Source: Melioribacteraceae bacterium | GTDB lineage: Bacteria; Bacteroidota; Ignavibacteria; Ignavibacteriales; Melioribacteraceae | Direction of reading: 5' to 3' | Assembly (NCBI GenBank): GCA_021739765.1 | Contig: JAIPBD010000021.1 | Coordinates: 2,453 to 66,452 of the forward strand | Length of the DNA stretch: 64,000 bases | Position numbers and translations under genes: made by a program | The notes under the pieces: generated by a model | Databases searched by the model: none | Told to the model about the DNA's origin: nothing | Seen by the model: the letters and a program-made list of their open reading frames with translations, nothing else | In this document: positions 10,838-25,333 of the stretch, in pieces | How positions within the stretch are numbered: position 1 is the stretch's first letter | How the letters are laid out: every line of letters starts with the position of its first letter

Positions 10838-12331
10838 TTATGGATTTAATCCGGTATGGCAATCCGTACAAAGTGATTCTTTCCACATTTCATCAATATC
10901 TACCGGATGTCTAAATTCCAACGGTTCGCCAAATTTTGCAACTTGTAAACTATCGGCGGGACCTTGCGCGTTGATTACGTGGCATTGATTACAATCATTT
11001 GAAATAACTTTGCCTTCCTCGGATTCGTGGTAAGAATCGTGGCAACGGAAACAGCCATCAAATTCAAAATGACCGATATTGTTGGGATAATAATCCCATC
11101 GGACTTTCATTTCAGGAAAAATGTTTTGATTAAAAGCGTTTTGAACACCAACAATACTTTTTTCGATTAATTCCTTCTGCTCTTCAAAAATGTCTTCATA
11201 ATCTTCGGAATAAAATTCCAGTATTCCATTACGAATTGCGGCCATCGCGGAATCGGTGGTCGGATACTCCTCGCCTAATAATTCCATAGTGAGAGACTTA
11301 ATTTCCGGCAGTTCAGGCGATACATCCCCTCGTGCCAAAGCTTCATTAATAAAAACAGCCGGAGGTCTGTAATTGTGAGACGGGCGGTTGTGGCAATCCA
11401 TACAATCCATAGTTCTTATCTCATAATTCCCCAATGAATCCGGATCGATAGAATCATCACCATCATAAACAGTTATTTCGCCGGTTTCTAAATTCGTATA
11501 TCGAACCCATGGGATTTCCTGTCTTTTTTCGTCTGTTGAAATATATTCAACTTTTGTATTTGGACTAATATGCCAATGGCTTCCTTCCGAAAGACTTTTC
11601 GCGCTGGATTCGGCACCAACTTTTACGGTTAAATTAATATCCCATCTTGTATTTTTTTCATCGCTTAAATAATGGATTTCTTTCCGCATTGTAGAAGAAT
11701 AAAATTTTTCCGGCCAATGGCATTGTTCACAAGTTTCACGGGCCGGACGAAGATTTTTAATCGGAGTCGGAATCGGTCGTTCATATGTATTTGCCATTAC
11801 TGCGTAAACCTGGTATAGTCCTGTGATTTTTGCTTTAACAAACCAATCAGCTCCCGAGCCGACATGGCATTCGGCGCACCCTACTCTCGCGTGTGCTGAT
11901 GTTTGATAAGCTGTGTATTCGGGTTTCATAACCTCGTGGCATATTTCTCCGCAGAATTGATCTGATTCCGAGAAATGAAACGCTTCATATCCGCCAATCG
12001 CAGAGGCAAATAATAAAATTGCGGTTCCAAAAAGAAATATTGCGGTAGCATTTCTGTGTTGAGGAGTATTTAGGTTTATAATCGGTAGTTTGCCCTTATT
12101 CTCTTCAGATTTTTTTTTCTCGAAATACATTCCAATCGGAATTAAAATGAGACCAAAAATCATTACTCCGGGTAAAATCATGTAAATAATTAGACCAAAG
12201 TAAGCGTTACCTCGGTCAAGAATTGTGGTAACGATAGCTAGAATTATGATTAGTGAGAATGTTATTGCGGCTATTACAGCCCCTGCCATCGAAATTAAAT
12301 TATAGAATGAATCTGGAAGTTTGTTTTTCAT
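10838..12331 (-). CDS. Inner-membrane multiheme cytochrome c, NapC/NirT-related, ImcH-like architecture (6 CxxCH + 1 CX3CH)
   Basis: Three N-terminal TM helices, then FCGEICHEVM, CAECH, CEQCH, CMDCH, CFRCH, CNQCH and CTDCH. The size (497 aa) and layout resemble Geobacter ImcH. Confidence 0.75.
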   Translation of the reverse strand: MKNKLPDSFYNLISMAGAVIAAITFSLIIILAIVTTILDRGNAYFGLIIYMILPGVMIFGLILIPIGMYFEKKKSEENKGKLPIINLNTPQHRNATAIFLFGTAILLFASAIGGYEAFHFSESDQFCGEICHEVMKPEYTAYQTSAHARVGCAECHVGSGADWFVKAKITGLYQVYAVMANTYERPIPTPIKNLRPARETCEQCHWPEKFYSSTMRKEIHYLSDEKNTRWDINLTVKVGAESSAKSLSEGSHWHISPNTKVEYISTDEKRQEIPWVRYTNLETGEITVYDGDDSIDPDSLGNYEIRTMDCMDCHNRPSHNYRPPAVFINEALARGDVSPELPEIKSLTMELLGEEYPTTDSAMAAIRNGILEFYSEDYEDIFEEQKELIEKSIVGVQNAFNQNIFPEMKVRWDYYPNNIGHFEFDGCFRCHDSYHESEEGKVISNDCNQCHVINAQGPADSLQVAKFGEPLEFRHPVDIDEMWKESLCTDCHTGLNP

Positions 12332-12615: not shown

Positions 12616-14856
12616 ATGATGAAATATATTTTCTTACTTTTTCTTGGATTCATGACTTTGCAAGCGCAAGATGAAAATGAATCTTGTTTCGATTGCCATT
12701 CAGATCAAGAATTAACCAAGGAGCACAACGGTAAAGAAATATCACTTTTCGTAGAGGCCGGTAAATTTTCTGAGTCGGTACATGCTGATATGTTGTGTGT
12801 TGATTGCCACGAAGATGTTGATCCGGAAGATCTTCCGCATGATGAGGAATTAGAGAAAGTTGATTGTTCAAATTGCCATGATACCGAAGAATTCAATGAA
12901 GGCATTCACTCCGCGAAAAATATTGAATGCTATGATTGCCATTCTAAGCATGAGATTCAATTCACAAGTAATTTAATTGAAAACCAGGTTGATTTCTGTA
13001 CCACCTGCCATCAAAAACCTTCGGTAAAAAATTATACTAAAAGTGTTCACTTTGCCACATCGAAAGATGGTGAAGGCCCAAAATGTTTGGATTGCCACGG
13101 CAGTTCAGCGCATGGGATAAAAGATGCAAAATTAACAGAACCAGAGCTCCACGAAATGTGCGCTTCCTGTCACAAGGATGCTGTTGTTGATTTTGAGAAT
13201 AGTTTGCATGGCAAAGCTCTTTCACGAAATCAATTTTTGGCTCCAAATTGTATTACTTGCCATAACTCACACGAAATCAGATCGGCGAAGGATGTTAAAT
13301 CTAAAACTTATGTGATGAATATTCCTAACCTTTGCGGTGACTGCCATAAAGACGGTACGACGGTTTCAGCGCAAAAGGGGATTGGTCAGCGGCACATTCT
13401 GGCGAATTATTCACAATCAATTCATGGTGACGGTTTATTTAGAAGAGGATTGACTGTGACGGCAGTTTGTACAAGTTGTCATTTTTCGCACAAAATTTTA
13501 CCGCATGAAAATCCAAACTCTTCAATTAATAGAGATAACATTGCAAATACTTGTATGCAGTGTCATAGCCAGATTGAGACGGTTCATCAAAAAGTTATTA
13601 ACGGTGAATTGTGGGAAAAAGAACCGCATAAAATTCCCGCATGTATCGAATGCCATCAGCCGCATGAAGTTAGAAGAGTCTTTTACGAAGAACGCCTTGA
13701 TGATGAAATGTGTATGGATTGTCATAGTCGGAAGGACATTTCCAAAACCGTAGATGGGAAAAAGGTTTCGTTGTTTGTTGATGCAGATGAAGTTCATGGT
13801 TCAGCACACAAAGAAAATTCTTGTATAAAATGTCATACAAATGTCAGTACCGAAAACAATCCGGTCTGTTTAAGCAGCGGCAAAGTGGATTGCTCGATTT
13901 GTCATGCGGAAGCGGTTGAAGATTATACTGCGAGCACACATGGCCAATTGCACGCGGCAAATGATTCCGATGCACCTTATTGTACTGACTGTCATGGAGA
14001 TCACGGGATAAAAGTTAAAGCGGATGTTAAGTCTGTAACTTTCAAGCAAAATATTCCGATGCTTTGCGGTGAATGCCATAAAGAAGGCGGAGTCGCGGCT
14101 AAAAGATATAAAGGCGAAGATCATAATATTTTTAGCAATTATCAGATGAGTATACACGGTAAGGGATTGAGTAAAAGCGGATTGTTAGTAACCGCGACTT
14201 GCACCAATTGCCACACAACACATAGAGAACTTCCCGTCGCTGATATTACTTCCTCGATTAACCCGGTAAATATTGCCGAAACATGTGCAACTTGTCATCT
14301 GGGTGTTTATGAAGATTTTAAAGAAAGTGTACACAGTCCGCTGGTAACAAAAACAGATAAAAAACTTCCCGCTTGTAACGATTGTCATCTTTCACACACA
14401 ATTGAACGAGTTGGGGAGGAAGATTTTAGACTGCAAATTTTGAATCAATGCGGTAAATGCCACGAAGAAGTAACAAAAACTTATTTCGATACATTCCACG
14501 GGAAAGTATCAAAATTGGGTTCGGACAAAACAGCGAGATGTAATGACTGTCATGGTTCTCATAATATTCTTCCGCCTATTAATCCAAATTCAACTCTTAG
14601 CAGAGATAATATCGTCGAGACTTGTAAAACTTGTCATCCCAACTCAAATAGAAAATTTGTCGGGTATTTAACTCATGCAACACATCATGATAAGGACAAA
14701 TATCCATTCCTTTTTTATACATTCTGGTTTATGTCAATTTTACTTGTTAGTACTTTCGCATTTTTCGGATTGCATACATTACTATGGCTACCAAGAGGAC
14801 TTGCAGAGAAACGGAAACAAAGAAAAGCTAAGAAAAATCAGCCGCCTAAGGAATAA
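12616..14856 (+). CDS. 23-heme c-type cytochrome with signal peptide and C-terminal TM anchor
   Basis: 23 CxxCH motifs counted in the translation. N-terminal signal MMKYIFLLFLGFMTLQAQ. C-terminal helix FLFYTFWFMSILLVSTFAFFGL followed by a basic tail. Confidence 0.9.
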   Translation: MMKYIFLLFLGFMTLQAQDENESCFDCHSDQELTKEHNGKEISLFVEAGKFSESVHADMLCVDCHEDVDPEDLPHDEELEKVDCSNCHDTEEFNEGIHSAKNIECYDCHSKHEIQFTSNLIENQVDFCTTCHQKPSVKNYTKSVHFATSKDGEGPKCLDCHGSSAHGIKDAKLTEPELHEMCASCHKDAVVDFENSLHGKALSRNQFLAPNCITCHNSHEIRSAKDVKSKTYVMNIPNLCGDCHKDGTTVSAQKGIGQRHILANYSQSIHGDGLFRRGLTVTAVCTSCHFSHKILPHENPNSSINRDNIANTCMQCHSQIETVHQKVINGELWEKEPHKIPACIECHQPHEVRRVFYEERLDDEMCMDCHSRKDISKTVDGKKVSLFVDADEVHGSAHKENSCIKCHTNVSTENNPVCLSSGKVDCSICHAEAVEDYTASTHGQLHAANDSDAPYCTDCHGDHGIKVKADVKSVTFKQNIPMLCGECHKEGGVAAKRYKGEDHNIFSNYQMSIHGKGLSKSGLLVTATCTNCHTTHRELPVADITSSINPVNIAETCATCHLGVYEDFKESVHSPLVTKTDKKLPACNDCHLSHTIERVGEEDFRLQILNQCGKCHEEVTKTYFDTFHGKVSKLGSDKTARCNDCHGSHNILPPINPNSTLSRDNIVETCKTCHPNSNRKFVGYLTHATHHDKDKYPFLFYTFWFMSILLVSTFAFFGLHTLLWLPRGLAEKRKQRKAKKNQPPKE

Positions 14857-14858
14857 AA

Positions 14859-15704
14859 ATGAAAAACAAAGAACAAGAAATATATATACAGAGATTTGAC
14901 GCTTATTCCAGAATTCTTCACATTCTGATAATTACAAGCTTTCTATCTCTTGCATTAACGGGGATGATTATCAAATTCTCGGGCTATCCCACTTTTCAAT
15001 TTATATCTGATCTGTTGGGCGGATACGAAGTTACCGGATTTATTCACAGAGCAGCCGCCTTTGTTACTTTTGGTTACTTTTTTCTCCACATCTATTATCT
15101 GATTCGAAAATTGGTAAATAAGGATATGGACCCAAAATATTTTTATTCAGGAGAAAATTCACTCGTTCCGAATAAAAATGATTTTAAAGAATTCGTTCAA
15201 ACTATGAAATGGTTTTTGGGCGTTGGACCTCGTCCGCGATATGGAAGATGGACATATTGGGAAAAATTCGATTATTTCGCCGTCTTTTGGGGAGTCGCGG
15301 TAATTGGATTGAGCGGATTAATATTATGGTTCCCAGAATTTTTTACTAATCTTGGGTTACCGGGATGGTTTATTAACGTATCGACAATAATTCACAGCGA
15401 TGAAGCTCTTCTTGCTACCGGTTTCATTTTTACGGTTCATTTTTTCAACACTCACTTCCGACCGGATAAATTTCCTATGGATCCTGTTATTTTTACAGGT
15501 TGCGTGCCTTTGGAGGAATTCAAAGAAGATCGTCCGAGGGAATATGAAAGATTAATAAACACCGGAACACTTGAAGAACGAATAGTAAATCCACCTTCCT
15601 CAGCTCTTTTAAAAGTTGCGAAAATCTTTGGATTTACTGCTTTTACAATAGGATTGATGATTATAGTATTAATCATATATACTATGATATTTGTATATCA
15701 ATAA
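14859..15704 (+). CDS. Membrane di-heme cytochrome b (FdnI/HydC/PhsC-like)
   Basis: Starts 3 nt after the 23-heme gene. Has 4-5 TM helices with conserved His residues (ILHILII, FIHRAAAF..FFLHIYY, IIHSDEAL..FTVHFF). Paralogous to the C-terminus of the next gene. Confidence 0.75.
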   Translation: MKNKEQEIYIQRFDAYSRILHILIITSFLSLALTGMIIKFSGYPTFQFISDLLGGYEVTGFIHRAAAFVTFGYFFLHIYYLIRKLVNKDMDPKYFYSGENSLVPNKNDFKEFVQTMKWFLGVGPRPRYGRWTYWEKFDYFAVFWGVAVIGLSGLILWFPEFFTNLGLPGWFINVSTIIHSDEALLATGFIFTVHFFNTHFRPDKFPMDPVIFTGCVPLEEFKEDRPREYERLINTGTLEERIVNPPSSALLKVAKIFGFTAFTIGLMIIVLIIYTMIFVYQ

Positions 15705-15721
15705 TAACTTGGAAACATAAA

Positions 15722-18127
15722 ATGATTGCTGAATTTTCTCGTAAACTATTAATAATGTTGGTTTTGACAACCTTTGCTGTTCAAGGCCAAGACTTTGAAT
15801 GTCTCGATTGTCATGATAACCTGATTGAAAAGTCCTCCGCACATTTTGAAGTAATCGAGTGTGGAGACTGCCATTCCGATGTTGAAGACGAAGAGCACAT
15901 GGATACTGGAGCAGCAAAAGTAAAATGTGCTGATTGCCACGATGAATACGCCGAGAATTATAAGTCGAACATTCACTTCCGTTTGGGCGATAAAGTCCCA
16001 AATCCCCCGGATTGTAAATCATGCCACGGCGAACATGAAATAGTTTCTCCTTCGCTGGTAAAAAATAAAGTGAAGTATTATTGCTCCGATTGCCATGCGG
16101 GGAATGTTGTTTTAGCAAACCCTTATCACACCGAAGCTGTAAGCGAGAATATTTGTGCTGATTGCCACGATATTGACGAACCAAATTTACAGCTGACAAA
16201 TTCTGTGCATAGTGATTTAGAATGCGCTGACTGCCATAATTATATTTCAAATAATTTAGAAGACCACCCGGATAATGTTTCATTTAAACAAACAGCGGAT
16301 TGTTATTTGTGCCATAATGACGTCGCGTTAATCCATAGAGAAAGTATTCACGGAATTTCACTCGAAGAAGGTGTTGAAGAAGCAGCGCAATGTTGGGATT
16401 GTCATAATGGACATAATGTCGTTCACGTAAAAGATCCTGCAAGTCCGGTTGCTCCAAAAAATATTACAGCGACATGCGCGACTTGCCACGATGATTCTCA
16501 AATGGCACAAAAATTTAATATCGCGATTGAAAATCCGGGCGAAATGTATTCACTCTCGGTTCATGGAAAGAAAAACGCTGAGGGACTCGAAGCCGCGAAT
16601 TGTGTTTCTTGCCACGGCGGCCATGATATTTACACTGTTATCAATCCGAAATCATCAATTTCGCCTTATAATTTACCGGAGACTTGCGGTAAATGTCATG
16701 CTGATCAGACAGATGAGTATACTCAATCAATTCATTGGATTCGCGCGCTAAAAGGCGAAAGAATGTCTCCGATTTGTAATGACTGCCATAGCGAACACCA
16801 AATTGAAGAAATTCATGGGGACGATGCACAAGCTGCAATTAATTTGCTCCAAGAGCAAACATGTTTCGAGTGCCACGAAAGCTCAATAATTGCAAAACGG
16901 TATGGTAAAAAATCCGGTGAGCCAAATCTATATCGAGATAGTTATCATGGTTTAGCGGTTATGAGAGGTGATAAAGACGCGGCAATGTGTATCGATTGTC
17001 ATGGGGTTCACAAAATATTACCGAATGAACATCCCGAGTCGGAAGTCGGTGACTTGAAAGTAACGGAAACCTGTCAAAAATGTCATCCCGAAGCGACAGA
17101 AGTGTTTTCAAAAAGTTATTCTCACAGATCAACATCAGAAGAAGCCGCGAAAGTTGAATCGATTGTTACCAATCTTTATTTCTGGCTGATTGTGTTGGTG
17201 ATTGGCGGAATGGTAGTTCACAATCTTTTGATTTTTGTTTACGAAATAAAAAACAAGCGTAAAAAGGAAAAGAATGTAATTGTTATTCCGAGATTTTCAA
17301 AAAACGAAGTTGTTCAACATTTTCTGCTTCTTACAACTTTTATTACTCTTGTTATTACCGGGTTTGCCTTAAAATTCCCAAATAGTTTTTGGGCATCAGG
17401 TTTGTTGGAACTCGGTATGATTGAACCCGTCCGGCAAATTGTACATAGAGTTGCCGGTGTGCTGATGCTTCTTGTCGGTTTTTATCATGTATTTTATCTC
17501 TTTGTAACTGCACGAGGACGTGATGTGCTTAAAGAACTTCTCCCGAAGTTGGATGATGCCAGACACGCAATGGATAATATTCTCTACTACACCAGAATCA
17601 GAAAAGAGAAACCAAAATTCAATCAATATGATTATGCCGAAAAAGCGGAATATTGGGCATTGATTTGGGGTACATTCGTAATGGGAGTTACCGGATTTAT
17701 TCTTTGGTTCCCAACAATTATTGGTGATTGGGCGCCGGTATGGTTCATTAAAGTTTCGGAAATTATTCATTATTATGAAGCCATACTTGCCTCGTTGGCG
17801 ATTCTCGTTTGGCATTGGTTCTTTGTCATTTTCCATCCCGGCGAATATCCGATGAGTTTTACATGGATTGATGGAAATATGTCACTTACCCATTACAGAA
17901 AACATCATGAAGGTCATTTCAGAAGATTGCTTTTGAATTGGTATGAAAACAAAAACAATGATAAAAAGCTCAATAATTATACAAAGATGGTATTTAAGAA
18001 ATTCGAAGAATTCGGATTAAAGGCCGATGATGTATTTAACAATGAATTAATAAATGATCCCGAATTGAGATTTTGGTTGGATTCGGTTACTGAGAAGAAA
18101 ACTGATAATTATTTCGATAATGAATAA
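15722..18127 (+). CDS. Fusion of a 16-heme cytochrome c with a cytochrome b membrane domain (CbcL-like architecture)
   Basis: 16 CxxCH motifs in aa 1-470. A TM helix is followed by a b-type domain (VVQHFLLL, IVHRVAGV..FYHVFY, IIHYYEAI..VWHWFF) that can be aligned with the product of 14859-15704. Confidence 0.9.
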   Translation: MIAEFSRKLLIMLVLTTFAVQGQDFECLDCHDNLIEKSSAHFEVIECGDCHSDVEDEEHMDTGAAKVKCADCHDEYAENYKSNIHFRLGDKVPNPPDCKSCHGEHEIVSPSLVKNKVKYYCSDCHAGNVVLANPYHTEAVSENICADCHDIDEPNLQLTNSVHSDLECADCHNYISNNLEDHPDNVSFKQTADCYLCHNDVALIHRESIHGISLEEGVEEAAQCWDCHNGHNVVHVKDPASPVAPKNITATCATCHDDSQMAQKFNIAIENPGEMYSLSVHGKKNAEGLEAANCVSCHGGHDIYTVINPKSSISPYNLPETCGKCHADQTDEYTQSIHWIRALKGERMSPICNDCHSEHQIEEIHGDDAQAAINLLQEQTCFECHESSIIAKRYGKKSGEPNLYRDSYHGLAVMRGDKDAAMCIDCHGVHKILPNEHPESEVGDLKVTETCQKCHPEATEVFSKSYSHRSTSEEAAKVESIVTNLYFWLIVLVIGGMVVHNLLIFVYEIKNKRKKEKNVIVIPRFSKNEVVQHFLLLTTFITLVITGFALKFPNSFWASGLLELGMIEPVRQIVHRVAGVLMLLVGFYHVFYLFVTARGRDVLKELLPKLDDARHAMDNILYYTRIRKEKPKFNQYDYAEKAEYWALIWGTFVMGVTGFILWFPTIIGDWAPVWFIKVSEIIHYYEAILASLAILVWHWFFVIFHPGEYPMSFTWIDGNMSLTHYRKHHEGHFRRLLLNWYENKNNDKKLNNYTKMVFKKFEEFGLKADDVFNNELINDPELRFWLDSVTEKKTDNYFDNE

Positions 18128-18457: not shown

Positions 18458-18553
18458 TTTATCAGTTTGCCTATTTGTTGTATTTATTATATTTTAATGG
18501 AAATAAAAGATTCTTTTATCTTTTGATGAAATAAAACCTAAATGGAGGATGCA

Positions 18554-19099
18554 ATGAAATACAGAAATCTTTTTATCGTTGCGATTGCACTTATTTTTGC
18601 AGTAACAACTAACGCACAAGACAAATTTGAATACGTCGGAGTTAAGACATGTGGTATGTGTCATAAAAAAGCTGACGACGGCGAGCAATTGAAAATTTGG
18701 GAAGCTTCTGCACACGCAAACGCATATAAGACTCTTCAAACCGAAGAAGCAGACAAAATTGCTGCTGAAAAGGGATTTAAAACCAAAGCCGCAGAAACAG
18801 CTGATTGTTTGAAATGCCATGTTTCCGGACATGGAGTCGATGCTAAATTGATCGGCAAAAAATTCAAGATGGAAGATGGCGTGCAATGTGAAACTTGCCA
18901 TGGTCCGGGCTCTGAATACAAATCTAAAAAAGTGATGGAAAACAGAGAAGAAGCTGTTAAAAATGGAATGTTGGTTTTTGAAGATGTTGATAAAGAACTT
19001 TGCCAAACATGCCACAATGAAGAAAGTCCTACTTTCGTAAAATTTGATTACAAAGAAATGTGGGCAAAAATCGCACATCCGATTCCTGCAGCAAAATAA
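18554..19099 (+). CDS. Periplasmic tetraheme cytochrome c (c554-like)
   Basis: Signal peptide MKYRNLFIVAIALIFAVTTNAQ. Four motifs: CGMCH, CLKCH, CETCH, CQTCH. Confidence 0.85.
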   Translation: MKYRNLFIVAIALIFAVTTNAQDKFEYVGVKTCGMCHKKADDGEQLKIWEASAHANAYKTLQTEEADKIAAEKGFKTKAAETADCLKCHVSGHGVDAKLIGKKFKMEDGVQCETCHGPGSEYKSKKVMENREEAVKNGMLVFEDVDKELCQTCHNEESPTFVKFDYKEMWAKIAHPIPAAK

Positions 19100-19115: not shown

Positions 19116-20384
19116 ATGAAAAAATTTTTATTCGTATTGTTTGTGTTATGCCTGAGTTTTTCAACTCAGGCACAACATTTCTCAGGTAGATTTTCTTCTT
19201 CCTTGTACTCGTTCGAAAGATTTACCGATAAGCAAAACTCAGAAACGAACCTTCGCTCATTTCAAACTTTATATTTTAATCTGGGCAATAAAGATTACTC
19301 ATTAAAATCAAGATTGAATCTTGAAACTAATTTGATGAATTCGCTTGACAACGATCCGAGGCTCAGATTCTATAATCTTTATGTCGAAGCCAGAAATATA
19401 TTTGATATCGCAACCGTAAAATTGGGAAGACAAACCCTTTTTAACAGTGCGGCCGGCGGATTATTTGACGGGCTGAGTTTTAAAGCAAATTATTCTATGT
19501 TCAAATTCGAAGGTTACTTTGGCGGGAATGTACCGGCTTATCAAAAACTGGCAATCATCGATAATTTTGGCGACAATTATTTGCTGGGCGGAAAAATATC
19601 TGCATATCCACTCGAAAAAGTAAAGGTTGCCGTTTCATATATCAATAAAAACTACAAACCTCAAGATTATTTAGCAAATCGACTTGATACCTTGAATAAT
19701 CCGATAACATTATTGATCGAACAAAATTCGAATCAATTTGAATTTGTATCCGCGGAAGCTTCTTATTTTGATGATAAATTTTTGACCGTATTTTCAAAAA
19801 TTGAATATGACTTGAATTTTGCAACCGCATCCAAATTTGAAGTTAGCGGAAGATACTCACAAATCGATGATCTCGGAGTTAGTTTTTATTATAATTTCCG
19901 TGAACCGCGAATTCGTTATAACTCCATTTTTTCTGTTTTTAACTACGGAAGTACTCAGGAAATTGAAGGTGGACTGGATTATCGGTTAACACCCGAGATT
20001 CAGTTAATGACAAAATTTGGAAATGTAACGTATGAAGATGATGATGCTCAACGTTACACATTAGGATTTAATACCATTTACGGAAATATAAGTTACCGTG
20101 TTTCTACCGGTTATACCGGTGAGCTAAATTCACTTTCCGCATATACGGCAAAATCTTTTATGGATGGAATGATCACTCCATCAGTCGGAGTTTCATTTAC
20201 AGGTTACAAATTATCAAAAGATGAAGAAGAGAAATCAATAACTTCCGTTCTTGCCGGAATGAATTACAGACCGATGCGGAATTTATCTTTTGATTTGCAA
20301 GGTCAATTTTTTAATAATCCAATTTATTCCAATGATTTCCGTGTACTGTTTAAAGTGAATCATTGGTTTAATACTAACTTTTGA
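19116..20384 (+). CDS. Outer-membrane beta-barrel protein (porin-like)
   Basis: Signal peptide MKKFLFVLFVLCLSFSTQAQ. Alternating hydrophobic beta-strand pattern rich in Y/G/N/S. C-terminal ..NHWFNTNF ends in an aromatic residue. No Cys or heme motifs. Confidence 0.7.
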   Translation: MKKFLFVLFVLCLSFSTQAQHFSGRFSSSLYSFERFTDKQNSETNLRSFQTLYFNLGNKDYSLKSRLNLETNLMNSLDNDPRLRFYNLYVEARNIFDIATVKLGRQTLFNSAAGGLFDGLSFKANYSMFKFEGYFGGNVPAYQKLAIIDNFGDNYLLGGKISAYPLEKVKVAVSYINKNYKPQDYLANRLDTLNNPITLLIEQNSNQFEFVSAEASYFDDKFLTVFSKIEYDLNFATASKFEVSGRYSQIDDLGVSFYYNFREPRIRYNSIFSVFNYGSTQEIEGGLDYRLTPEIQLMTKFGNVTYEDDDAQRYTLGFNTIYGNISYRVSTGYTGELNSLSAYTAKSFMDGMITPSVGVSFTGYKLSKDEEEKSITSVLAGMNYRPMRNLSFDLQGQFFNNPIYSNDFRVLFKVNHWFNTNF

Positions 20385-20392
20385 TAATTAGT

Positions 20393-21598
20393 ATGAAGAT
20401 AAAGATATATTATCCAGTTCTTGCTTTATTCCTTTTTGTGCTTATAGCAGCATTTTCATTTTCAAATGAAGGGGAAAAGCCCTCAAACAATGAAGTAATT
20501 AAATTTTCGCATCAACTGCACGGCGAGATGATGTCTTGTGCGGAATGTCACACAGGCGTTGTTGAAAGCTCATCATTGAGTGATCGGTTGCTTCCGGAAA
20601 AAGATGTTTGTGCTGATTGCCACGATGTTGACGATGACGAAAATTGCCAAATGTGCCATTATGAAGAGGTTTATGAACCATTGGAAAGTGGGAAATCAAA
20701 GTTGATTTTCGACCATCAATTTCATGGCAATTTAGATGAACTTGAATGCGAAAGCTGCCACACGGGATTAGACGAAGTCGACTATAGTTTCGAATCAAAA
20801 TCTGTTTTACCGGGAATGTCGCAATGTTACACTTGCCACAACGAAAATGCTGTTGCAACGAACGCTTGTGAGGCATGCCATATTGAAACACACGATCTAC
20901 TCCCCGAAACTCACGCAATTGTGAACTTTTTAGATAATCACAGATTTATGGCAACAGAAATGGATGCTAATTGCGCGATGTGTCATGATGACGATTTTTG
21001 CGGTACATGTCATGAATCTACAACAATGCTCGGAGTCGCAAACACAGCATCTGATTTTTACACACCATATTCACCGCACACTTATACGGACGGCATCAAG
21101 CAACAACAAATTACCCGCGCCCATGATTTAACATACAGATTTACACATGGAATTGACGCAAAAGGTAAAACTAACGAATGTTCAACGTGTCACAATCAGG
21201 AAACATTCTGTGTTGAATGCCATAATATGGAAGGTGGAGATATTGCTATCGAAGGTTTTGTTCCTCATTCACATTCAGTTGATAATTTTGTGACTTTTGG
21301 GGTTGGAACCGGCGGTGGAGAACATGCTGTTCAAGCTAGAAGGGATATCGAAAATTGCGCTTCATGCCATGATACGCAAGGTGCTGATCCGAATTGTATT
21401 TTATGCCACACCGATCCGGATGGTATAAAAGGAACAAATCCTCGAACACATGAAACAAGTTTTATGTCGGATCTTAACGGTGATTGGCATAATGATGACG
21501 GATCTGTTTGTTACAATTGCCATACTGATGCATTTGCGACGGCTAAAGTTGCCGGTAACGGATTCTGTGGTTATTGCCACGGAGCAAATGTTGACTAA
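20393..21598 (+). CDS. 14-heme c-type cytochrome (c3/c7-type repeats), periplasmic or membrane-anchored
   Basis: 14 CxxCH motifs. N-terminal hydrophobic segment IYYPVLALFLFVLIAAFSF. F.H..H....C..CH units are typical of class III cytochromes. Overlaps the barrel gene stop. Confidence 0.85.
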   Translation: MKIKIYYPVLALFLFVLIAAFSFSNEGEKPSNNEVIKFSHQLHGEMMSCAECHTGVVESSSLSDRLLPEKDVCADCHDVDDDENCQMCHYEEVYEPLESGKSKLIFDHQFHGNLDELECESCHTGLDEVDYSFESKSVLPGMSQCYTCHNENAVATNACEACHIETHDLLPETHAIVNFLDNHRFMATEMDANCAMCHDDDFCGTCHESTTMLGVANTASDFYTPYSPHTYTDGIKQQQITRAHDLTYRFTHGIDAKGKTNECSTCHNQETFCVECHNMEGGDIAIEGFVPHSHSVDNFVTFGVGTGGGEHAVQARRDIENCASCHDTQGADPNCILCHTDPDGIKGTNPRTHETSFMSDLNGDWHNDDGSVCYNCHTDAFATAKVAGNGFCGYCHGANVD

Positions 21599-21627
21599 AG
21601 AAATTATAACCTTTTTTGGGAATCGAA

Positions 21628-23673
21628 ATGAAAATTAGAAATATACTGGCTCTCATCTTCTCTTTTCTTTTAATTACAGTCTCTTGTAGTGATATTCAGG
21701 AAGAGTTAAACTCTCCCGCTGAAATAGGAATACATGAAGAGGGATTCGGAGAAGTTGGATCTGATAATTCTCACATTCTTCACTTTCAAAAAGAGAATTG
21801 GAATTTGAAGGATTGCCAACAATGTCATGCTGCTGATTATTCCGGTGGAACTGCCAAATTTAGTTGTTTAACTTGTCATACTGATGAAGCCGGTCCGGAA
21901 GCGTGTAATACTTGTCATGGTGATTTTAGTGATTCTTCAAGAATAGCGCCGCCAACCGATTTGGCGGGAAATATGGAAAGAACCGAGCGCGGAGTTGGAG
22001 CCCATACTTCACATGTTTATGAAAATATGCTTGGTGCCGGAATCAGTTGTTATGAATGTCATCCATCAGCAACCGGCAGCGATGAGAAATATGTCTTTGC
22101 TCATGTTGGAGAATTGCCTGCCGATATGTTATTCGGAACAGTTGCTTCTTTAAATGGAAATCCAACTTACGACTTCGACGCATTAACTTGTCAGAACACT
22201 TATTGTCATGGAAGTTTTTCATTCGATAAACCTACGAACTATAAAGATTACGCTTATACGGCAAATCAAATTGTTGGAAAAAATTCAACAGTTAAATGGA
22301 CTGAAGAATATAATAGCTGCGACGGATGTCACGGTTTGCCTCCAACCGGACATATATATTCAGAATTGAATCAATGTTATTTGTGTCATGCCGATGTAGT
22401 AAATTCTTCAGGTGAAATAATTAATAAACTAAATCATTTGGATGGCGAAAAACAATCAGTTGCTGAGTCTGAACTTGAGAACTGTGCAAAATGTCATGGA
22501 AGCGCCCAGAGCGATGCTCCTCCGGTTTCATTGAGTGGAAGTTCTGATCCCACTGATCGTGGTGTCGGCGAACATGAAAAACATTTACTCACAACTTCTT
22601 TCACAAATCTGATTGAATGCGCCGAATGCCATACAGTTCCGGCAACGTATGACGCCGCAGGACACTTTGACGGCACCCAATACGCTGAAGTATTATTCGG
22701 AACATTGGCCGCATCGGATGGTGCTAATCCGCAATACAGTCAATCCACACTGAATTGTGATAATGTTTATTGCCACGGTGGTTTCGAATTTGAGAAACCG
22801 GCGACTTATGCTGCTTTCGCTTATTCTTCGGATAAAATCAGCGGAAACGATCCTTCGCTAAATTGGACCTCACAAGCTGCAAATGCAGAATGTGGAACAT
22901 GTCACGGTTTACCTCCAACCGGACATATTTATTCAGAATTAAACCAATGCTATTTGTGTCATGCTGATGTGGTTAACGCAAGCGGTGAAATTATAAGTAA
23001 AGACAATCATATCAACGCCGAGAAAAATGTAATAGCCCAAAATGATCTTGAAACTTGTAATTATTGTCATGGTGACAAAAATGCCGATCCGTCAGTTCTA
23101 GCAAATGCGGCTCCTCCGGTTGCCCTAAATGGAAGTTCTGATCCGAGTTACAGAGGGGTTGGCGCTCATGAAATTCATGTTCGAACAACGGAAATTTCAA
23201 ATTCAGCAGATTGCGCGGAATGTCATACTGTTCCGGCAACCTTCGATGCTCCCGGCCATTTTGATAATTCCCAATATGCGGAAGTCAATTTTGGTGAAAT
23301 AATCTCTGTTTCGCAGGCATCTTCTGCCGCTGAATTCAAATCTGCCGGTACTACATGCGCAAATACATATTGCCATGGTGGATTCAAAAACGGAAACATG
23401 GAAAATATAGTAAATTGGACTGGTGGCTCGGAAGAGGCGAAATGCGGTACATGCCATGGTGACCCCGATACCGGAAATCCTTTACCAACGGGAACTCACC
23501 CTCAAGTTCAAGATTGTTCACGTTGCCATCCTTCAGTCGTCTCTGTGACGGACGGTCATTATTCTTTTGTCGATAAATCAAAACATATTGATGGTAAAGT
23601 TACAATCGGTGGAACAACATTCGATTGGACCGATCTTCAATTAAAAAAATTAAAAGCCGGGATTGACTACTAA
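21628..23673 (+). CDS. Lipoprotein multiheme cytochrome with three ~190-aa modules (14 CxxCH + 3 CX4CH)
   Basis: Lipobox LITVSC. Modules contain CxxCHG, CxECH, CxNxYCHG (CX4CH), CxxCHGxPPTGH and CxxCH. The DNA of modules 1 and 2 is partly near-identical. Confidence 0.85.
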   Translation: MKIRNILALIFSFLLITVSCSDIQEELNSPAEIGIHEEGFGEVGSDNSHILHFQKENWNLKDCQQCHAADYSGGTAKFSCLTCHTDEAGPEACNTCHGDFSDSSRIAPPTDLAGNMERTERGVGAHTSHVYENMLGAGISCYECHPSATGSDEKYVFAHVGELPADMLFGTVASLNGNPTYDFDALTCQNTYCHGSFSFDKPTNYKDYAYTANQIVGKNSTVKWTEEYNSCDGCHGLPPTGHIYSELNQCYLCHADVVNSSGEIINKLNHLDGEKQSVAESELENCAKCHGSAQSDAPPVSLSGSSDPTDRGVGEHEKHLLTTSFTNLIECAECHTVPATYDAAGHFDGTQYAEVLFGTLAASDGANPQYSQSTLNCDNVYCHGGFEFEKPATYAAFAYSSDKISGNDPSLNWTSQAANAECGTCHGLPPTGHIYSELNQCYLCHADVVNASGEIISKDNHINAEKNVIAQNDLETCNYCHGDKNADPSVLANAAPPVALNGSSDPSYRGVGAHEIHVRTTEISNSADCAECHTVPATFDAPGHFDNSQYAEVNFGEIISVSQASSAAEFKSAGTTCANTYCHGGFKNGNMENIVNWTGGSEEAKCGTCHGDPDTGNPLPTGTHPQVQDCSRCHPSVVSVTDGHYSFVDKSKHIDGKVTIGGTTFDWTDLQLKKLKAGIDY

Positions 23674-23686
23674 TCCCGGGCTTTTC
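23657..23686 (+). terminator. Rho-independent terminator overlapping the stop codon
   Basis: ccgggatt-gactact-aatcccgg forms an 8-bp stem, followed by gcttttct. Confidence 0.6.
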
Positions 23687-23720
23687 TCCCTTAAACTAAC
23701 CCGCAAATAAATTTAAACGG

Positions 23721-23842
23721 TGTTTCATGCTAAAGCGTTTTGTTTCAAAACGTTTCATGAAACACTGTGTTTCAAATCCTCTAACTCCTTATAAAATAAC
23801 ATCTTAGTCAACTCTCTTTCATTAATGAAACAACTTGTTTCA
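23721..23842. promoter_or_regulatory. Cluster of (T/C)GTTTCA half-sites including palindromes (candidate enhancer/UAS)
   Basis: tgtttca at 23721, 23741 and 23768; cgtttca at 23751; palindrome gtttcatgaaac at 23752-23763; tgaaac-N5-gtttca at 23826-23842. Confidence 0.45.
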
Positions 23843-23884
23843 CCCTCAGTTTAAATAAAGCGCGATTTAAGTCTATAATCATCA

Positions 23885-23899
23885 TGGCACTCGTTTTGA
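23885..23899 (+). promoter_or_regulatory. Candidate sigma-54 promoter TGGCAC-N5-TTGA
   Basis: Perfect -24 TGGCAC with canonical spacing to TTGA (the -12 is GA, not GC). Lies 37 nt upstream of the ATG at 23936. Confidence 0.5.
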
Positions 23900-23935
23900 G
23901 TATTAGTATTAAAACAAAACGGTGGAACTACTATA

Positions 23936-25333
23936 ATGAAAAAGACTATTTCCTCTTTAATTCTATTTTTTACACTATCGATTTTCGTTTCGTTTGGCTG
24001 TCAGGAAGAAGCGGATACGAACATTGCTATTCCGGCAGAAACAGTTGCACAAACCAATTCCTGCGAAGGCTGCCACACAAATTACGATCATCTGAAAAAA
24101 GTATACACACCTGAAGAACCATCAACTGAAGAAAGCCATGGCTGCGGCGGACCTCCGCCGTATTATGAACCCTATGACAGAGTTTATTTAGGTGGTGATG
24201 GTTACAATGAATTCAAGTCTGGTATTCACGGCCAAATCGGATGCGTTGGTTGTCACAATGGTGTTGAAGGTACTTCTGATAAAACCGTGGCTCACTCGGG
24301 AAGTTTTACGGCAAAGCCTTCCTTAAACTCCGAAGATGCGTGTGGTAAATGTCATCCGACCATTGTTGCTCGCGCAAAAAATAGTTTGCACGAACAAGGC
24401 TGGGGACAGAAGGCAATGGTTGTTAGAAGATCGGGAACAGGCACGAGTCCGACGGATTTTCACAATTTGTCTGATCTGATGAAGGAGGGTTACACAAAAA
24501 ACTGTATGAAATGTCACGCAACTTGCGGTGATTGTCATATTGTTCGACCAAATGCAAAAGGAGGGGGATTAGAAAGCGGACATAATTTTGTTAAAACACC
24601 CGATATGCGCGAAACTTGTGTCGGATGCCATGAAAGTCGAGGTGGTCATGCTTATTTCGGAATGGCCATTGGTACAAAACCGGATATTCATTTATCCGAA
24701 GCTGGATTCAATTGTATGGATTGTCACTCAAAAAATGAAGTTCATGGCGACGGAAATATTTATGATCAAAGATACAAAATGCCACTTTTGCCTTCTTGTG
24801 AAGATTGCCATAACGGATTAGAAACAGTCAATCCATTTCACACAAAACATTTCGATTCTTTTAACTGCCAAACCTGCCATTCGCAAGATTATAATAACTG
24901 TGGAAGTTGTCATATAGGTGGTGAAGGCGCAAGAATTGCTTCTCACCAAAAATTCAAAATTGGTTTAAATCCAATCCCGGAAACAAAACCATATCGTTTG
25001 GCAACAGTAAGAGAATCGCTTTCTGCTCCGGATAGTTGGGCGAATTACGGAATTGATAACCTATCCAACTTTGATGTCGCGCCCACTTACAAATACACAA
25101 CTCCTCATAATATTCAAAGGTGGACAACAAGAACAACAATCGATACGGTTTACGATTCTTCCCAACCGGATTGTGCTCAAAGTTGTCATATCGTAAAAAA
25201 TAGTGATGACGGATCGTATATCAATAAAGAATATTACCTATTTGATAGCGACCTCTTAGACTGGGAAAAGAACGCGACAAAAAATGTAGTAGTTGACGGT
25301 CAATTACCTCTGAGTTGGGGAACTGATCTTTAA
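23936..25333 (+). CDS. Lipoprotein multiheme cytochrome c (10 CxxCH + 1 CX3CH)
   Basis: Lipobox VSFGC. Motifs: CEGCH, CVGCH, CGKCH, CMKCH, CGDCH, CVGCH, CMDCH, CEDCH, CQTCH, CGSCH and CAQSCH. Confidence 0.85.
   Translation: MKKTISSLILFFTLSIFVSFGCQEEADTNIAIPAETVAQTNSCEGCHTNYDHLKKVYTPEEPSTEESHGCGGPPPYYEPYDRVYLGGDGYNEFKSGIHGQIGCVGCHNGVEGTSDKTVAHSGSFTAKPSLNSEDACGKCHPTIVARAKNSLHEQGWGQKAMVVRRSGTGTSPTDFHNLSDLMKEGYTKNCMKCHATCGDCHIVRPNAKGGGLESGHNFVKTPDMRETCVGCHESRGGHAYFGMAIGTKPDIHLSEAGFNCMDCHSKNEVHGDGNIYDQRYKMPLLPSCEDCHNGLETVNPFHTKHFDSFNCQTCHSQDYNNCGSCHIGGEGARIASHQKFKIGLNPIPETKPYRLATVRESLSAPDSWANYGIDNLSNFDVAPTYKYTTPHNIQRWTTRTTIDTVYDSSQPDCAQSCHIVKNSDDGSYINKEYYLFDSDLLDWEKNATKNVVVDGQLPLSWGTDL

What the first reader, a model, noticed from the sequence alone, without database searches (positions are those of the whole stretch)
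12616..18127. Adjacent split and fused versions of the same multiheme cytochrome c / cytochrome b module
Gene 12616-14856 (23 hemes, C-terminal TM anchor) is followed 3 nt later by a separate 281-aa cytochrome b. The next gene, 15722-18127, encodes 16 hemes covalently fused to a paralogous cytochrome b domain. The His-bearing helices align between the two: ILHILII/VVQHFLLL, FIHRAAAF/IVHRVAGV, IIHSDEAL/IIHYYEAI.

The fused form has the architecture known from Geobacter CbcL, but with more hemes. Having both forms in tandem captures a gene fission or fusion event. It also suggests two quinol oxidases tuned to different potentials.
Basis: partly seen in the sequence, partly recalled or inferred. 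Interest (0 to 1): 0.7.

Follow-up and report, generated by a model that had tools for sequence, protein, structure and literature searches.

The report
Split and fused CbcL-type quinol–cytochrome modules
Two ancient sister genes for membrane "quinol-to-multiheme-cytochrome" electron exporters sit side by side in a Melioribacteraceae genome, one cut into two genes and one in a single piece; this layout is common in many bacterial phyla and belongs to the known CbcL family.

Summary
[quoted passage not shown] B (14859-15704) is a 281-aa FdnI-type dihaem cytochrome b. C (15722-18127) joins 16 CXXCH motifs, an anchor helix and a paralogous b module. B and C's b module share 31% identity (E 8e-29). 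Four His are invariant and align with FdnI H18/H57/H155/H169.

The "captured fusion/fission event" reading is only partly right. A+B and C are deep paralogues, and each has its own orthologues across more than 10 phyla. A C-type copy lies within 10 kb of the A/B-type gene in 42 of 80 species genomes. The closest Ignavibacteria genomes share the same A|B|C layout.

The fission is real, but it lies within the A/B lineage: 55 of 80 species carry A+B as one 19-23-haem gene and 22 carry it split. Rooting on the C clade makes fused the ancestral state. In Calditrichota the C-type is split at the same cytoplasmic linker.

By sequence, the split pair is the closer CbcL relative, not C. A fused 23-haem counterpart was catalogued as a CbcL homologue in 2018.

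The likely function is menaquinol oxidation feeding a neighbouring porin-cytochrome cluster. Tuning to different potentials is untested.

The parts
12616..14856 (+). Gene A: 746-aa periplasmic 23-haem cytochrome c. Signal peptide aa 1-18, haem domain aa 19-696, conserved THATHH motif aa 686-691, C-terminal anchor helix aa 697-726 (nt 14704-14793) with invariant His720 (nt 14773-14775), and a basic cytoplasmic tail. It is the c-subunit of a split CbcL-type complex.
   Evidence: 23 CXXCH motifs and the TM segment. Pfam multihaem families. H720, H687 and H690 are invariant in 72 orthologues. The anchor motif is conserved in both fused and split orthologues.
14859..15704 (+). Gene B: 281-aa FdnI/HydC-type dihaem cytochrome b with four core TM helices plus a C-terminal fifth helix (aa 250-281). 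The predicted axial His are H21, H63, H179 and H194; H77 is an extra His. An SD-like AAGGA lies inside A's 3' end.
   Evidence: PF01292 at 38.9 bits, above the 30.1 cut-off. Invariant His. The profile matches FdnI 1KQF_C at E 3e-13, with His aligned to H18/H57/H155/H169. 119 of the 120 closest homologues are stand-alone proteins.
15722..17146 (+). Gene C, N-terminal part: signal peptide plus a 16-haem periplasmic cytochrome c domain (aa 1-475).
   Evidence: 16 CXXCH motifs. 29% identity to A's haem domain, E 1e-45.
17147..18127 (+). Gene C, C-terminal part: anchor helix TM0 (aa 476-509, His500), a basic linker, a four-helix FdnI-type b module (aa about 520-740; H533, H575, H589, H683, H698), and a soluble cytoplasmic tail (aa 741-801). 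There is no sixth TM helix.
   Evidence: PF01292 at 63.8 bits. AF2 model with pLDDT 89.8 and pTM 0.83. Foldseek gives 1KQF_C at E 1.6e-5, prob 1.00, TM 0.77. Invariant His in 71 C-type sequences.
10838..12331 (-). ImcH-like seven-haem inner-membrane cytochrome, divergently transcribed from A. It is a third putative quinol oxidase at the locus.
   Evidence: One CX3CH at aa 127 plus CXXCH at 152, 201, 310, 427, 447 and 488. This matches the published ImcH layout of GSU3259: 132, 156, 205, 311, 428, 448, 486. NapC/NirT domain. ImcH-like genes lie near the A/B-type gene in 28 of 80 loci.
18542..19099 (+). c554-like tetrahaem periplasmic cytochrome, a candidate electron acceptor or shuttle.
   Evidence: PF13435 at E 3e-19. 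4 CXXCH motifs; homologues in 29 surveyed loci.
19116..20384 (+). Putative outer-membrane beta-barrel protein (porin-like), 422 aa counted from the internal Met.
   Evidence: Signal peptide, 17% aromatic residues, C-terminal Phe, many period-2 amphipathic stretches and no Pfam hit. It co-occurs with the next gene in the same 12 loci. No structure was predicted.
20381..21598 (+). 14-haem cytochrome c that pairs with the porin-like gene, making a candidate porin-cytochrome conduit.
   Evidence: 14 CXXCH motifs; found in the same 12 loci as the porin-like gene. Pfam Cytochrome_C7 and MtrC-like domains.
21616..25333 (+). Two further multihaem cytochromes: a 685-aa protein with 14 CXXCH plus 3 CX4CH, and a 465-aa protein with 10 CXXCH. 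They are candidate outer or extracellular components.
   Evidence: PF09698, the Geobacter CX4CH...CXXCH motif, at E 4.7e-13.

Best explanation
**What is shown**

The locus, from a Melioribacteraceae (Ignavibacteriota) MAG, encodes two anciently duplicated members of the CbcL/MtrH/MtoC kind of inner-membrane bc-cytochrome. Each unit has three parts:
- a periplasmic multihaem c domain;
- one anchor helix carrying a conserved His;
- a four-helix FdnI-type dihaem cytochrome b.

This is the FdnH-anchor + FdnI design, with haems replacing the Fe-S clusters. In gene C the three parts form one polypeptide. In A/B the same unit is cut in the short cytoplasmic linker between the anchor helix and b-helix 1. 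The anchor helix and its His therefore stay with the 23-haem subunit.

The cut is a derived gene fission in a lineage whose ancestral and majority state is a single 19-23-haem gene. The same linker has been cut independently in the C lineage of other phyla.

**What is inferred**

By homology with Fdn-N, CbcL and CbcBA, A and B must assemble into one complex. Menaquinol would be oxidised at a site near the cytoplasmic-side haem b. Electrons would cross the membrane through two b haems into the haem-c chain, then pass to the neighbouring c554-like cytochrome and porin-cytochrome genes for extracellular electron transfer.

A/B, C and the adjacent ImcH-like gene would be parallel quinol oxidases, possibly used at different acceptor potentials.
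For: **Identity and fold**
- PF01292 scores above threshold for B and C.
- Four invariant His align to FdnI H18/H57/H155/H169. The profile matches 1KQF_C at E 3e-13.
- The AF2 model of C aa 470-745 has pLDDT 89.8. FdnI is its only significant PDB match.

**Paralogy**
- B vs C's b module: 31% identity, E 8e-29. The c domains: 29% identity, E 1e-45.
- The C-type forms a monophyletic clade, 42 of 42.

**CbcL relation**
- A+B joined aligns colinearly through the gene junction with P0356, a 9-haem, 6-TM protein with the CbcL layout: 39% identity over 632 aa, E 2e-134. C gives 27%.
- A legible 43-aa fragment of genuine GSU0274 CbcL is 57% identical to B and 28% to C.
- A 1034-aa, 23-haem, 6-TM fused protein (GBD91784.1) with A's haem spacing is listed as a CbcL homologue in PMC6295460 Table S2.

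**Fission**
- 119 of 120 closest B homologues are stand-alone, and 100 of 120 closest A homologues lack a b domain. Another 20 are fused, at 921-1063 aa.
- In 80 species genomes, 55 are fused, 22 are split, 2 are unclear and 1 is cut by a contig end.
- Parsimony on a tree rooted with the C-type gives a fused ancestor.
- L002 carries a 921-aa fused orthologue: 46% identity to A and 56% to B.
- The C-type is cleanly split at the same linker in L007, L013 and L035.
- The anchor-helix His is nearly invariant in both states.

**Context**
- ImcH-like, c554-like, porin-like and multihaem genes are adjacent and syntenic in relatives.

**Mechanism by analogy**
- For CbcL, quinol oxidation at the cytoplasmic side with cytoplasmic proton release is the published inference (bioRxiv 10.1101/2022.08.31.506072; 10.1101/2023.05.03.539133).
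- In CbcBA, the C-terminal helix of the c subunit is proposed to supply a b-haem His (10.1101/2021.04.15.440034).
Against: - No experiment exists on any member of this Ignavibacteria cluster. Haem b binding, quinol specificity, the direction of electron flow and A-B complex formation are all inferred.
The CbcL link rests on OCR fragments, on P0356 (which has the CbcL layout but no taxonomic label) and on a published family table.
- The trees are neighbour-joining without bootstrap. The number and direction of individual split/fused changes is therefore approximate. An A-only tree rooted at its midpoint gave 'split' at its root.
- The role of the anchor His and of B H77/C H589 is unknown.
- The porin-like assignment rests on sequence features only.
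Confidence: 0.72

Rival explanations
1. The adjacent split and fused genes are the before-and-after of one recent fusion or fission event caught in this genome: a tandem duplication followed by fusion or fission of one copy.
For: The two units are adjacent, co-oriented and homologous along their whole length.
Against: - The b modules share only about 30% identity, and this holds in every genome examined (26-34%).
- Each copy has its own orthologues at 50-78% identity across many phyla.
- The C-type is a separate monophyletic clade.
- The same A|B|C layout occurs in all the closest Ignavibacteria genomes (L005, L009-L012, L014, L016, L017).
Confidence: 0.03
2. The A|B split is a sequencing or assembly artefact, or a pseudogene. 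The real gene would be a single 1027-aa fusion.
For: Artefactual splits of this family do occur. The C-type 'splits' in L001, L002 and L003 are single-base frameshifts inside conserved coding sequence. In L002 an extra A in a homopolymer cuts the last CXXCH motif in two.
Against: - A and B are found with identical sequences on three contigs or assemblies.
- The split falls in the non-conserved linker. It has a proper stop, an SD-like AAGGA and an ATG.
- 22 species genomes show the same clean split, with diverged A tails and B heads.
- 119 of 120 closest B homologues are stand-alone.
Confidence: 0.02
3. The modules run in the opposite direction. They would act as quinone reductases that bring electrons in from an extracellular donor such as Fe(II) or a cathode, like MtoC of Fe(II) oxidisers.
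For: CbcL/MtrH/MtoC homologues occur in both Fe(III) reducers and Fe(II) oxidisers, and no sequence feature separates the two (PMC6295460). The FdnI prototype itself reduces quinone.
Against: - An ImcH-like gene is adjacent. ImcH homologues have so far been linked only to quinol oxidation in reducers.
- From my own knowledge, cultivated Melioribacter is an organotroph that reduces Fe(III).
- No Cyc2-like or MtoA-like Fe(II)-oxidation marker was seen among the genes scanned.
Confidence: 0.13
4. A/B and C are not alternative parallel oxidases. They would be subunits of one hetero-oligomeric membrane complex, and that would explain why the two paralogues stay adjacent across phyla.
For: A C-type gene lies within 10 kb of the A/B-type gene in 42 of 80 loci, and in 30 of the 49 loci with full flanks. 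The two are often separated by under 50 nt. From my own knowledge, Fdn-N is a trimer whose FdnI subunits contact each other. No locus has both paralogues split (tally).
Against: - About half of the genomes carry the A/B-type without a nearby C-type.
- Gene order and orientation vary: C sits before or after A/B, on the same or the opposite strand.
- Geobacter CbcL works without such a partner.
Confidence: 0.1

Closest known systems
CbcL of Geobacter sulfurreducens (GSU0274) and the CbcL/MtrH/MtoC family (PMC6295460)
   Same: - An N-terminal periplasmic multihaem c domain, an anchor helix with a His, and an FdnI/HydC-type dihaem b module.
- The His pattern 1-1-1-0-2 over the helices matches A H720 plus B H21, H63, H179 and H194.
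- Six TM helices in A+B taken together.
- B is 57% identical to a 43-aa GSU0274 fragment.
- A+B aligns colinearly with P0356, a protein with the CbcL layout.
- Fused 19- and 23-haem orthologues are already listed in the family table.
   Different: - A/B is encoded as two genes.
- It has 23 haems instead of 9.
- C has 16 haems, only five TM helices, a soluble cytoplasmic tail and about 27-28% identity to CbcL-like sequences. It forms a separate clade.
- No functional data exist.
CbcBA of Geobacter sulfurreducens (GSU0593/0594)
   Same: A two-subunit design. A four-helix dihaem b subunit pairs with a multihaem c subunit anchored by a C-terminal helix that is proposed to supply a b-haem His. sigma54-type regulators are nearby in both cases.
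   Different: CbcB and CbcL are reported to share no sequence homology, and B resembles CbcL. CbcA has 7 haems and A has 23.
E. coli formate dehydrogenase-N FdnH/FdnI (PDB 1KQF)
   Same: The b module has the FdnI fold and the four axial His. The electron-transfer subunit is periplasmic, carries a single C-terminal anchor helix, and its gene lies directly upstream of the b subunit gene.
   Different: The periplasmic partner is a multihaem cytochrome c, not an Fe-S protein with a molybdopterin catalytic subunit. Scores fall below the FdnI equivalog cut-off: 36 and 58 bits against 115.85. Electron flow is presumed to be reversed, from quinol outwards.
GBD91784.1 ('fdoI', bacterium BMS3Abin04): 1034 aa, 23 CXXCH, 6 TM
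   Same: The haem spacing is nearly superimposable on A, and the TM layout equals A's anchor plus B. It is the fused form of the same orthologue group. Similar 1026-1063-aa proteins are 54-62% identical to A.
   Different: It is a single polypeptide.

Membership tests
FdnI/HydC-type dihaem cytochrome b (Pfam PF01292, Ni_hydr_CYTB) | Match to the family HMM above the curated threshold | tested here: met
   B scores 38.9 bits and C 63.8 bits, against a cut-off of 30.1.
FdnI/HydC-type dihaem cytochrome b (Pfam PF01292, Ni_hydr_CYTB) | Four axial His on TM helices 1, 2 and 4 (two on helix 4, about 14 residues apart), equivalent to FdnI H18, H57, H155 and H169 | tested here: met
   B H21, H63, H179 and H194, and C H533, H575, H683 and H698, are invariant in alignments A1 and A2. 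They align to the FdnI His in the profile match to 1KQF_C at E 3e-13. The FdnI ligand numbering is from my own knowledge of the 1KQF structure paper.
FdnI/HydC-type dihaem cytochrome b (Pfam PF01292, Ni_hydr_CYTB) | Four-helix-bundle fold of FdnI | tested here: met
   The AF2 model of C aa 470-745 has pLDDT 89.8. Foldseek gives 1KQF_C at E 1.6e-5, prob 1.00, TM 0.77, followed by Hyd-1 cytochrome b 4GD3_A at prob 0.97. B was not modelled.
FdnI/HydC-type dihaem cytochrome b (Pfam PF01292, Ni_hydr_CYTB) | Binds two b-type haems | not testable with these tools
   This needs purified protein and a pyridine haemochrome assay or spectroscopy.
Formate dehydrogenase gamma subunit proper (NCBIfam TIGR01583 equivalog) | Score above the equivalog cut-off, and neighbouring FdnG/FdnH genes | tested here: not met
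   B scores 36.3 bits and C 57.8 bits against a cut-off of 115.85. No molybdopterin subunit is adjacent; the neighbours are multihaem cytochromes. Database labels such as 'formate dehydrogenase subunit gamma' are misnomers.
CbcL/MtrH/MtoC family (as defined in PMC6295460) | One polypeptide with N-terminal CXXCH motifs (3-23) and a C-terminal HydC/FdnI-like domain of 4-6 TM helices | tested here: met
   This is met for gene C: 16 CXXCH and 5 TM helices. For A/B, see the next row.
CbcL/MtrH/MtoC family (as defined in PMC6295460) | The same architecture in a single polypeptide, applied to A/B | tested here: not met
   A and B are separate ORFs in different frames. Taken together they reproduce the 23-haem, 6-TM layout of the listed member GBD91784.1. 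Their fused orthologues at 54-66% identity do meet the criterion.
CbcL/MtrH/MtoC family (as defined in PMC6295460) | Sequence similarity to bona fide CbcL (GSU0274) | tested here: inconclusive
On a 43-aa OCR fragment of it, B is 57% identical and C 28%. P0356, which shares GSU0274's haem spacing and TM layout, is 49% identical to B and 27% to C. P0356 carries no taxonomic label.
CbcL/MtrH/MtoC family (as defined in PMC6295460) | Conserved TM His residues proposed as b-haem ligands, including one on the anchor helix (pattern 1-1-1-0-2) | tested here: met
   A H720 plus B H21, H63, H179 and H194. C H500, H533, H575, H683 and H698. The pattern is as described.
CbcL/MtrH/MtoC family (as defined in PMC6295460) | Menaquinol oxidation required for extracellular electron transfer at low potential | not testable with these tools
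   This needs genetics and electrochemistry. Only the genomic context is supportive.
CbcBA-type two-subunit bc complex | A separate four-helix b subunit, plus a multihaem c subunit with a C-terminal anchor helix bearing a His | tested here: met
   The architecture of A/B fits.
CbcBA-type two-subunit bc complex | Sequence homology of the b subunit to CbcB | not tested
   No CbcB sequence was in hand. The literature states that CbcB and CbcL share no sequence homology, and B resembles CbcL, so membership is unlikely.
ImcH (neighbour gene, 10838-12331 minus strand) | Three N-terminal TM helices, one atypical CX3CH plus six CXXCH motifs in the published spacing, and a NapC/NirT-like region | tested here: met
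   Motifs at aa 127 (CX3CH), 152, 201, 310, 427, 447 and 488, against GSU3259's 132, 156, 205, 311, 428, 448 and 486. PF03264 at E 2.8e-11. The TM helices were judged by reading the sequence only.

The most novel reading that the evidence does not exclude
The A/B-type CbcL module, the C-type paralogue and ImcH may form a portable three-member "quinol-oxidase cassette". It would travel with a porin-cytochrome conduit across more than 10 phyla and provide potential-graded exits from the menaquinol pool at a single locus. This would be a one-locus generalisation of the dispersed ImcH/CbcL/CbcBA logic of Geobacter.

Within this cassette, the anchor-helix His on the c subunit would help build the cytoplasmic-side haem-b/quinone site. 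That would explain why every natural fission, in both paralogues, falls in the same linker and leaves the anchor with the c subunit. Split forms would then be obligate heterodimers.
Probability: 0.3. Interest if true: 0.55.

Novelty: new member of a known kind. Interest (0 to 1): 0.36.

Why it matters
CbcL-type bc-cytochromes are one of the few known exits from the quinol pool toward extracellular electron acceptors. Only the Geobacter protein has been studied.

This locus and its relatives show three things.
- **Under-counted family.** The largest (19-23-haem) members are very widespread. They are often encoded as two genes, so surveys that require one polypeptide miss them, and databases mislabel them as "formate dehydrogenase gamma" or "cytochrome c3 family".
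- **A natural break point.** Nature has repeatedly cut the protein at one linker without losing it. That points to a way of expressing the haem-c and haem-b halves separately for biochemistry.
- **A marker set.** A CbcL-type gene, a second paralogue and ImcH are frequently co-located. This gives a compact marker set for predicting extracellular respiration in uncultured Ignavibacteriota, Acidobacteriota, Calditrichota, Bacteroidota and others.

None of this overturns current understanding.

Tried and rejected
- **Promoter and terminator scan of 12200-19200.** Counts did not differ from shuffles, so it says nothing about operon structure.
- **sigma54 consensus search.** It gave 20 matches against 20.4 expected. 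The sites at 12568-12583 (33 nt upstream of A) and 23885-23900 are leads only.
- **Stand-alone C-type b proteins that include the anchor helix** (P0131, P0195 and similar). I first read these as a second kind of split. Three-frame translation showed single-base frameshifts inside conserved coding sequence in L001, L002 and L003. I rejected them as artefacts or pseudogenes.
- **AF2 model of A.** pLDDT 77, pTM 0.50. Foldseek against the PDB gave no match at E <= 0.001, only weak hydroxylamine-oxidoreductase hits. It does not tell whether the 23-haem domain is an extended wire.
- **AF2 coordinates.** They are not exposed, so distances between the anchor His and the b-module His could not be measured.
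- **Full GSU0274, CbcB, MtrH, MtoC, HydC and PhsC sequences.**
- **Literature search** for a prior description of this Ignavibacteria/Melioribacter cluster. Nothing specific turned up.
- **No bootstrap** was run on the neighbour-joining trees.

Full report
**1. The observation**

- **A (12616-14856, 746 aa):** a signal peptide, 23 CXXCH motifs and one C-terminal hydrophobic helix (aa 697-726).
- **B (14859-15704, 281 aa):** no haem-c motif.
- **C (15722-18127, 801 aa):** 16 CXXCH motifs, a helix at aa 476-509, then four more helices.

A ends with TAA at 14854-14856 and B's ATG is at 14859, in another frame. B aligns to C residues 509-737 with 31% identity, E 8e-29. The Smith-Waterman score is 292, against 36 +/- 5.7 for shuffled sequence. 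The haem domains are homologous too: 29% identity, E 1e-45. The whole A+B unit is therefore a paralogue of C.

**2. What the b modules are**

Both pass the Pfam PF01292 threshold, at 38.9 and 63.8 bits against 30.1. Both fall well below the NCBIfam equivalog cut-offs for formate dehydrogenase gamma and hydrogenase cytochrome b.

In an alignment of B, C's b module and ten homologues from both clades, H21, H63, H179 and H194 (B numbering) are invariant and H77 is nearly so. The profile matches E. coli FdnI (1KQF chain C) at E 3e-13, with these His aligned to FdnI H18, H57, H155 and H169.

An AlphaFold2 model of C aa 470-745 is confident (pLDDT 89.8, pTM 0.83). Its only significant PDB match is FdnI (E 1.6e-5, prob 1.00, TM 0.77), followed by the hydrogenase-1 cytochrome b.

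One more His is conserved on the anchor helix in both paralogues. These are A H720 in FFGLHTLLWLPR and C H500 in GGMVVHNLL.

**3. Relation to CbcL**

*Published background:*
- CbcL is a fusion of a nine-haem c domain and a HydC/FdnI-type b domain with six TM helices.
- CbcL/MtrH/MtoC homologues occur in 15 phyla, with 3-23 haems and 416-1034 aa.
- Geobacter also has split b-plus-anchored-c clusters such as CbcBA, where the c subunit's C-terminal helix is proposed to supply a b-haem His.

*Comparison with this locus:*
- Supplementary Table S2 of PMC6295460 lists a 1034-aa, 23-haem, six-TM protein (GBD91784.1) whose haem spacing mirrors A and whose TM layout equals A's anchor plus B. It also lists 19-haem Ignavibacteria fusions.
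- A+B joined aligns colinearly, straight through the gene junction, with P0356. This nine-haem, six-TM protein has haem spacing matching the published GSU0274 layout. Identity is 39% over 632 aa (E 2e-134), and B alone gives 49%. C gives 27%.
- A 43-aa fragment of genuine G. sulfurreducens CbcL is legible in a machine-read alignment figure. It is 57% identical to B and 28% to C.

By sequence, then, the split pair is the nearer CbcL relative, and the fused gene C belongs to a separate, deeper clade.

**4. Is a fusion or fission event "captured"? Not between the two neighbours.**

- B has 6,885 database homologues. The closest 120 (66-78% identity) are all about 280-320 aa with no haem motif, except one.
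- Of A's closest 120 homologues, 100 are c-only proteins (63 with 23 haems, 33 with 19, and 4 with 21-22). The other 20 carry a fused b domain at 921-1063 aa.
- A profile search of 1.84 billion representatives finds 3,697 family members, mostly 600-1000-aa fusions. They fall into an A/B-type super-clade and a C-type clade.
- In 80 species-representative genomes holding the closest B-type genes, the A/B unit is fused in 55, split in 22, unclear in 2 and cut by a contig end in 1.
- The phyla include Ignavibacteriota, Calditrichota, Acidobacteriota, Bacteroidota, Gemmatimonadota, Zixibacteria, Planctomycetota and Eisenbacteria, among others.
- A C-type paralogue lies within 10 kb in 42 of the 80 loci, and in 30 of the 49 with full flanks. 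An ImcH-like gene is nearby in 28 of 80.
- The nearest Ignavibacteria and Melioribacteraceae genomes (L001, L005, L009-L012, L014, L016, L017) have exactly the window's A | B | C(16 haems) layout.

The pair is therefore ancient and ordinary for this lineage.

**5. Where the real fission is**

- L002 carries a 921-aa single-gene orthologue of A+B: 46% identity to A and 56% to B.
- On a b-module tree rooted with the monophyletic C-type clade, parsimony reconstructs the A/B-type ancestor as fused. Split forms appear in at least three separate groups.
- An A-only tree needs at least four state changes.
- The cut always falls in the short basic cytoplasmic linker between the anchor helix and b-helix 1. 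The highly conserved segment GYLTHATHHD...KYP...TFW.M..LL....HT.LWLPR stays with the c subunit.
- In two Calditrichota genomes and one Gemmatimonadota genome (L007, L013, L035) the C-type is cleanly split at the homologous linker while A/B is fused. This is the mirror image of the window.
- Apparent C-type splits in L001, L002 and L003 are single-base frameshifts inside conserved coding sequence, one of them in a homopolymer that bisects a CXXCH motif. I regard them as artefacts or pseudogenes.

**6. Context**

- Divergently upstream of A lies an ImcH-like gene whose CX3CH + 6 CXXCH layout matches GSU3259.
- Downstream follow a c554-like tetrahaem cytochrome, a porin-like protein and a 14-haem cytochrome. 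The last two co-occur in the same 12 loci.
- Two more multihaem cytochromes come next, then a rhodanese and a PAS-sigma54 activator.
- Further upstream are HmcB/HmcC-like (NrfCD-type) genes, a membrane-anchored GcvH-like protein, a histidine kinase and a sigma54 response regulator.
- The window belongs to a Melioribacteraceae MAG.

**7. Mechanism**

*Shown:* the domain architecture, fold, conserved ligands, paralogy, fission and synteny.

*Inferred from Fdn-N, CbcL and CbcBA:*
- A and B assemble through A's anchor helix.
- Menaquinol is oxidised near the cytoplasmic-side haem b.
- Electrons cross the membrane via two b haems into the c-haem chain and on to periplasmic and outer-membrane cytochromes.
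- The published inference for CbcL is that protons are released to the cytoplasm, so the step does not add to the proton motive force.

Whether A/B, C and the ImcH-like protein serve different potential windows is an analogy only. The direction of flow and a possible A/B-C hetero-complex remain open rivals.

**8. Novelty**

Both architectures are known kinds: fused CbcL, and split Cbc complexes with an anchor His. The fused counterpart of A+B was catalogued in 2018. Three modest additions come out of this analysis:
- the 19-23-haem CbcL-type clade is frequently encoded as two genes, so single-polypeptide surveys miss it;
- fission has recurred at one linker in both paralogues;
- a CbcL-type, C-type and ImcH trio is a common neighbourhood across phyla.

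I rate this as a new member of a known kind, with moderate-to-low interest.

Noticed in passing
window 10838-12331 (-): An ImcH-like seven-haem inner-membrane cytochrome (CX3CH + 6 CXXCH, NapC/NirT-like) is divergently transcribed from gene A. The locus therefore carries three putative quinol oxidases. ImcH-like genes lie near the A/B-type gene in 28 of 80 surveyed genomes.
   Followed up: partly
L007 about 6151-7940; L013 about 6193-7969; L035 about 7538-5798 (minus strand): In two Calditrichota genomes and one Gemmatimonadota genome the C-type paralogue is cleanly split (stop, own Met, other frame) at the anchor/b-helix-1 linker, while the A/B-type is fused. This is the mirror image of the window. 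No surveyed locus has both paralogues split.
   Followed up: partly
L001 7049-9554; L002 2096-4556; L003 about 4940-6816: C-type genes that were called as two ORFs are single-base frameshifts inside conserved coding sequence. In L002 an extra A in an A-run bisects the last CXXCH motif. These are likely assembly errors or pseudogenes. They inflate the apparent number of 'b-only' proteins in databases.
   Followed up: yes
window 14671-14688 (A aa 686-691) and orthologues: A THATHH(D) motif directly precedes the anchor helix and is nearly invariant in fused and split A/B-type proteins. H687 and H690 are invariant. It sits at the membrane surface between the last c haem and the periplasmic-side b haem. 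Its role is unknown.
   Followed up: no
window 15087-15089 (B H77) and 17486-17488 (C H589): There is an extra His on the cytoplasmic half of b-helix 2. It is at least 90% conserved in alignment A1, but absent from FdnI and from P0356, the protein with the CbcL layout. With the anchor-helix His, this gives four His on the cytoplasmic side. It could mean a third haem, an alternative ligation or a quinone-site residue.
   Followed up: no
window 12616-12900 (A N-terminus) vs 19-haem orthologues: Orthologues come in 19-haem and 23-haem versions that differ by an N-terminal four-haem extension. 19-haem proteins cover only 74-86% of A. Both versions occur in split and fused forms, and the haem number switches several times on the tree.
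   Followed up: partly
window 7734-10442 (-): HmcC-like (NrfD family; 347 bits to NF045714, below its cut-off) and HmcB-like (4Fe-4S) genes lie next to a 253-aa membrane-anchored GcvH-like protein. In L001 the GcvH domain is fused to response-regulator receiver domains. Similar HmcB/C-like genes occur in 11-16 surveyed loci.
   Followed up: partly
window 12568-12583 and 23885-23900 (+): sigma54-like -24/-12 elements lie 33 nt upstream of A's ATG (ATGCAC-N5-TTGCT) and 36 nt upstream of the 10-haem cytochrome gene (TGGCAC-N5-TTGAG). Two sigma54 activators flank the cluster (3998-5347 on the minus strand, 26965-28308 on the plus strand). The pattern count in the window is not above chance.
   Followed up: partly
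window 19116-21598 (+): A porin-like protein (signal peptide, C-terminal Phe, no Pfam hit) and a 14-haem cytochrome co-occur in the same 12 related loci. They are a candidate porin-cytochrome conduit unrelated by Pfam to MtrB. No structure was predicted.
   Followed up: partly
window 21616-23673 (+): A 685-aa cytochrome has 14 CXXCH plus three CX4CH motifs and matches the Geobacter CxxxxCH...CXXCH family (PF09698). It contains an obvious internal duplication: the sequence 'PPTGHIYSELNQCYLCHADVVN' appears twice.
   Followed up: no
window 18155-18457 (+): A 100-aa ORF with no haem motif sits between C and the c554-like gene. A homologue was found in only one surveyed locus (L016, 73% identity). 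Function unknown.
   Followed up: no
database annotations of B and C homologues: Many B-type and C-type proteins are named 'formate dehydrogenase subunit gamma' or 'cytochrome b subunit of formate dehydrogenase' by their sources. They score far below the FdnI equivalog cut-off and have no formate dehydrogenase neighbours.
   Followed up: yes
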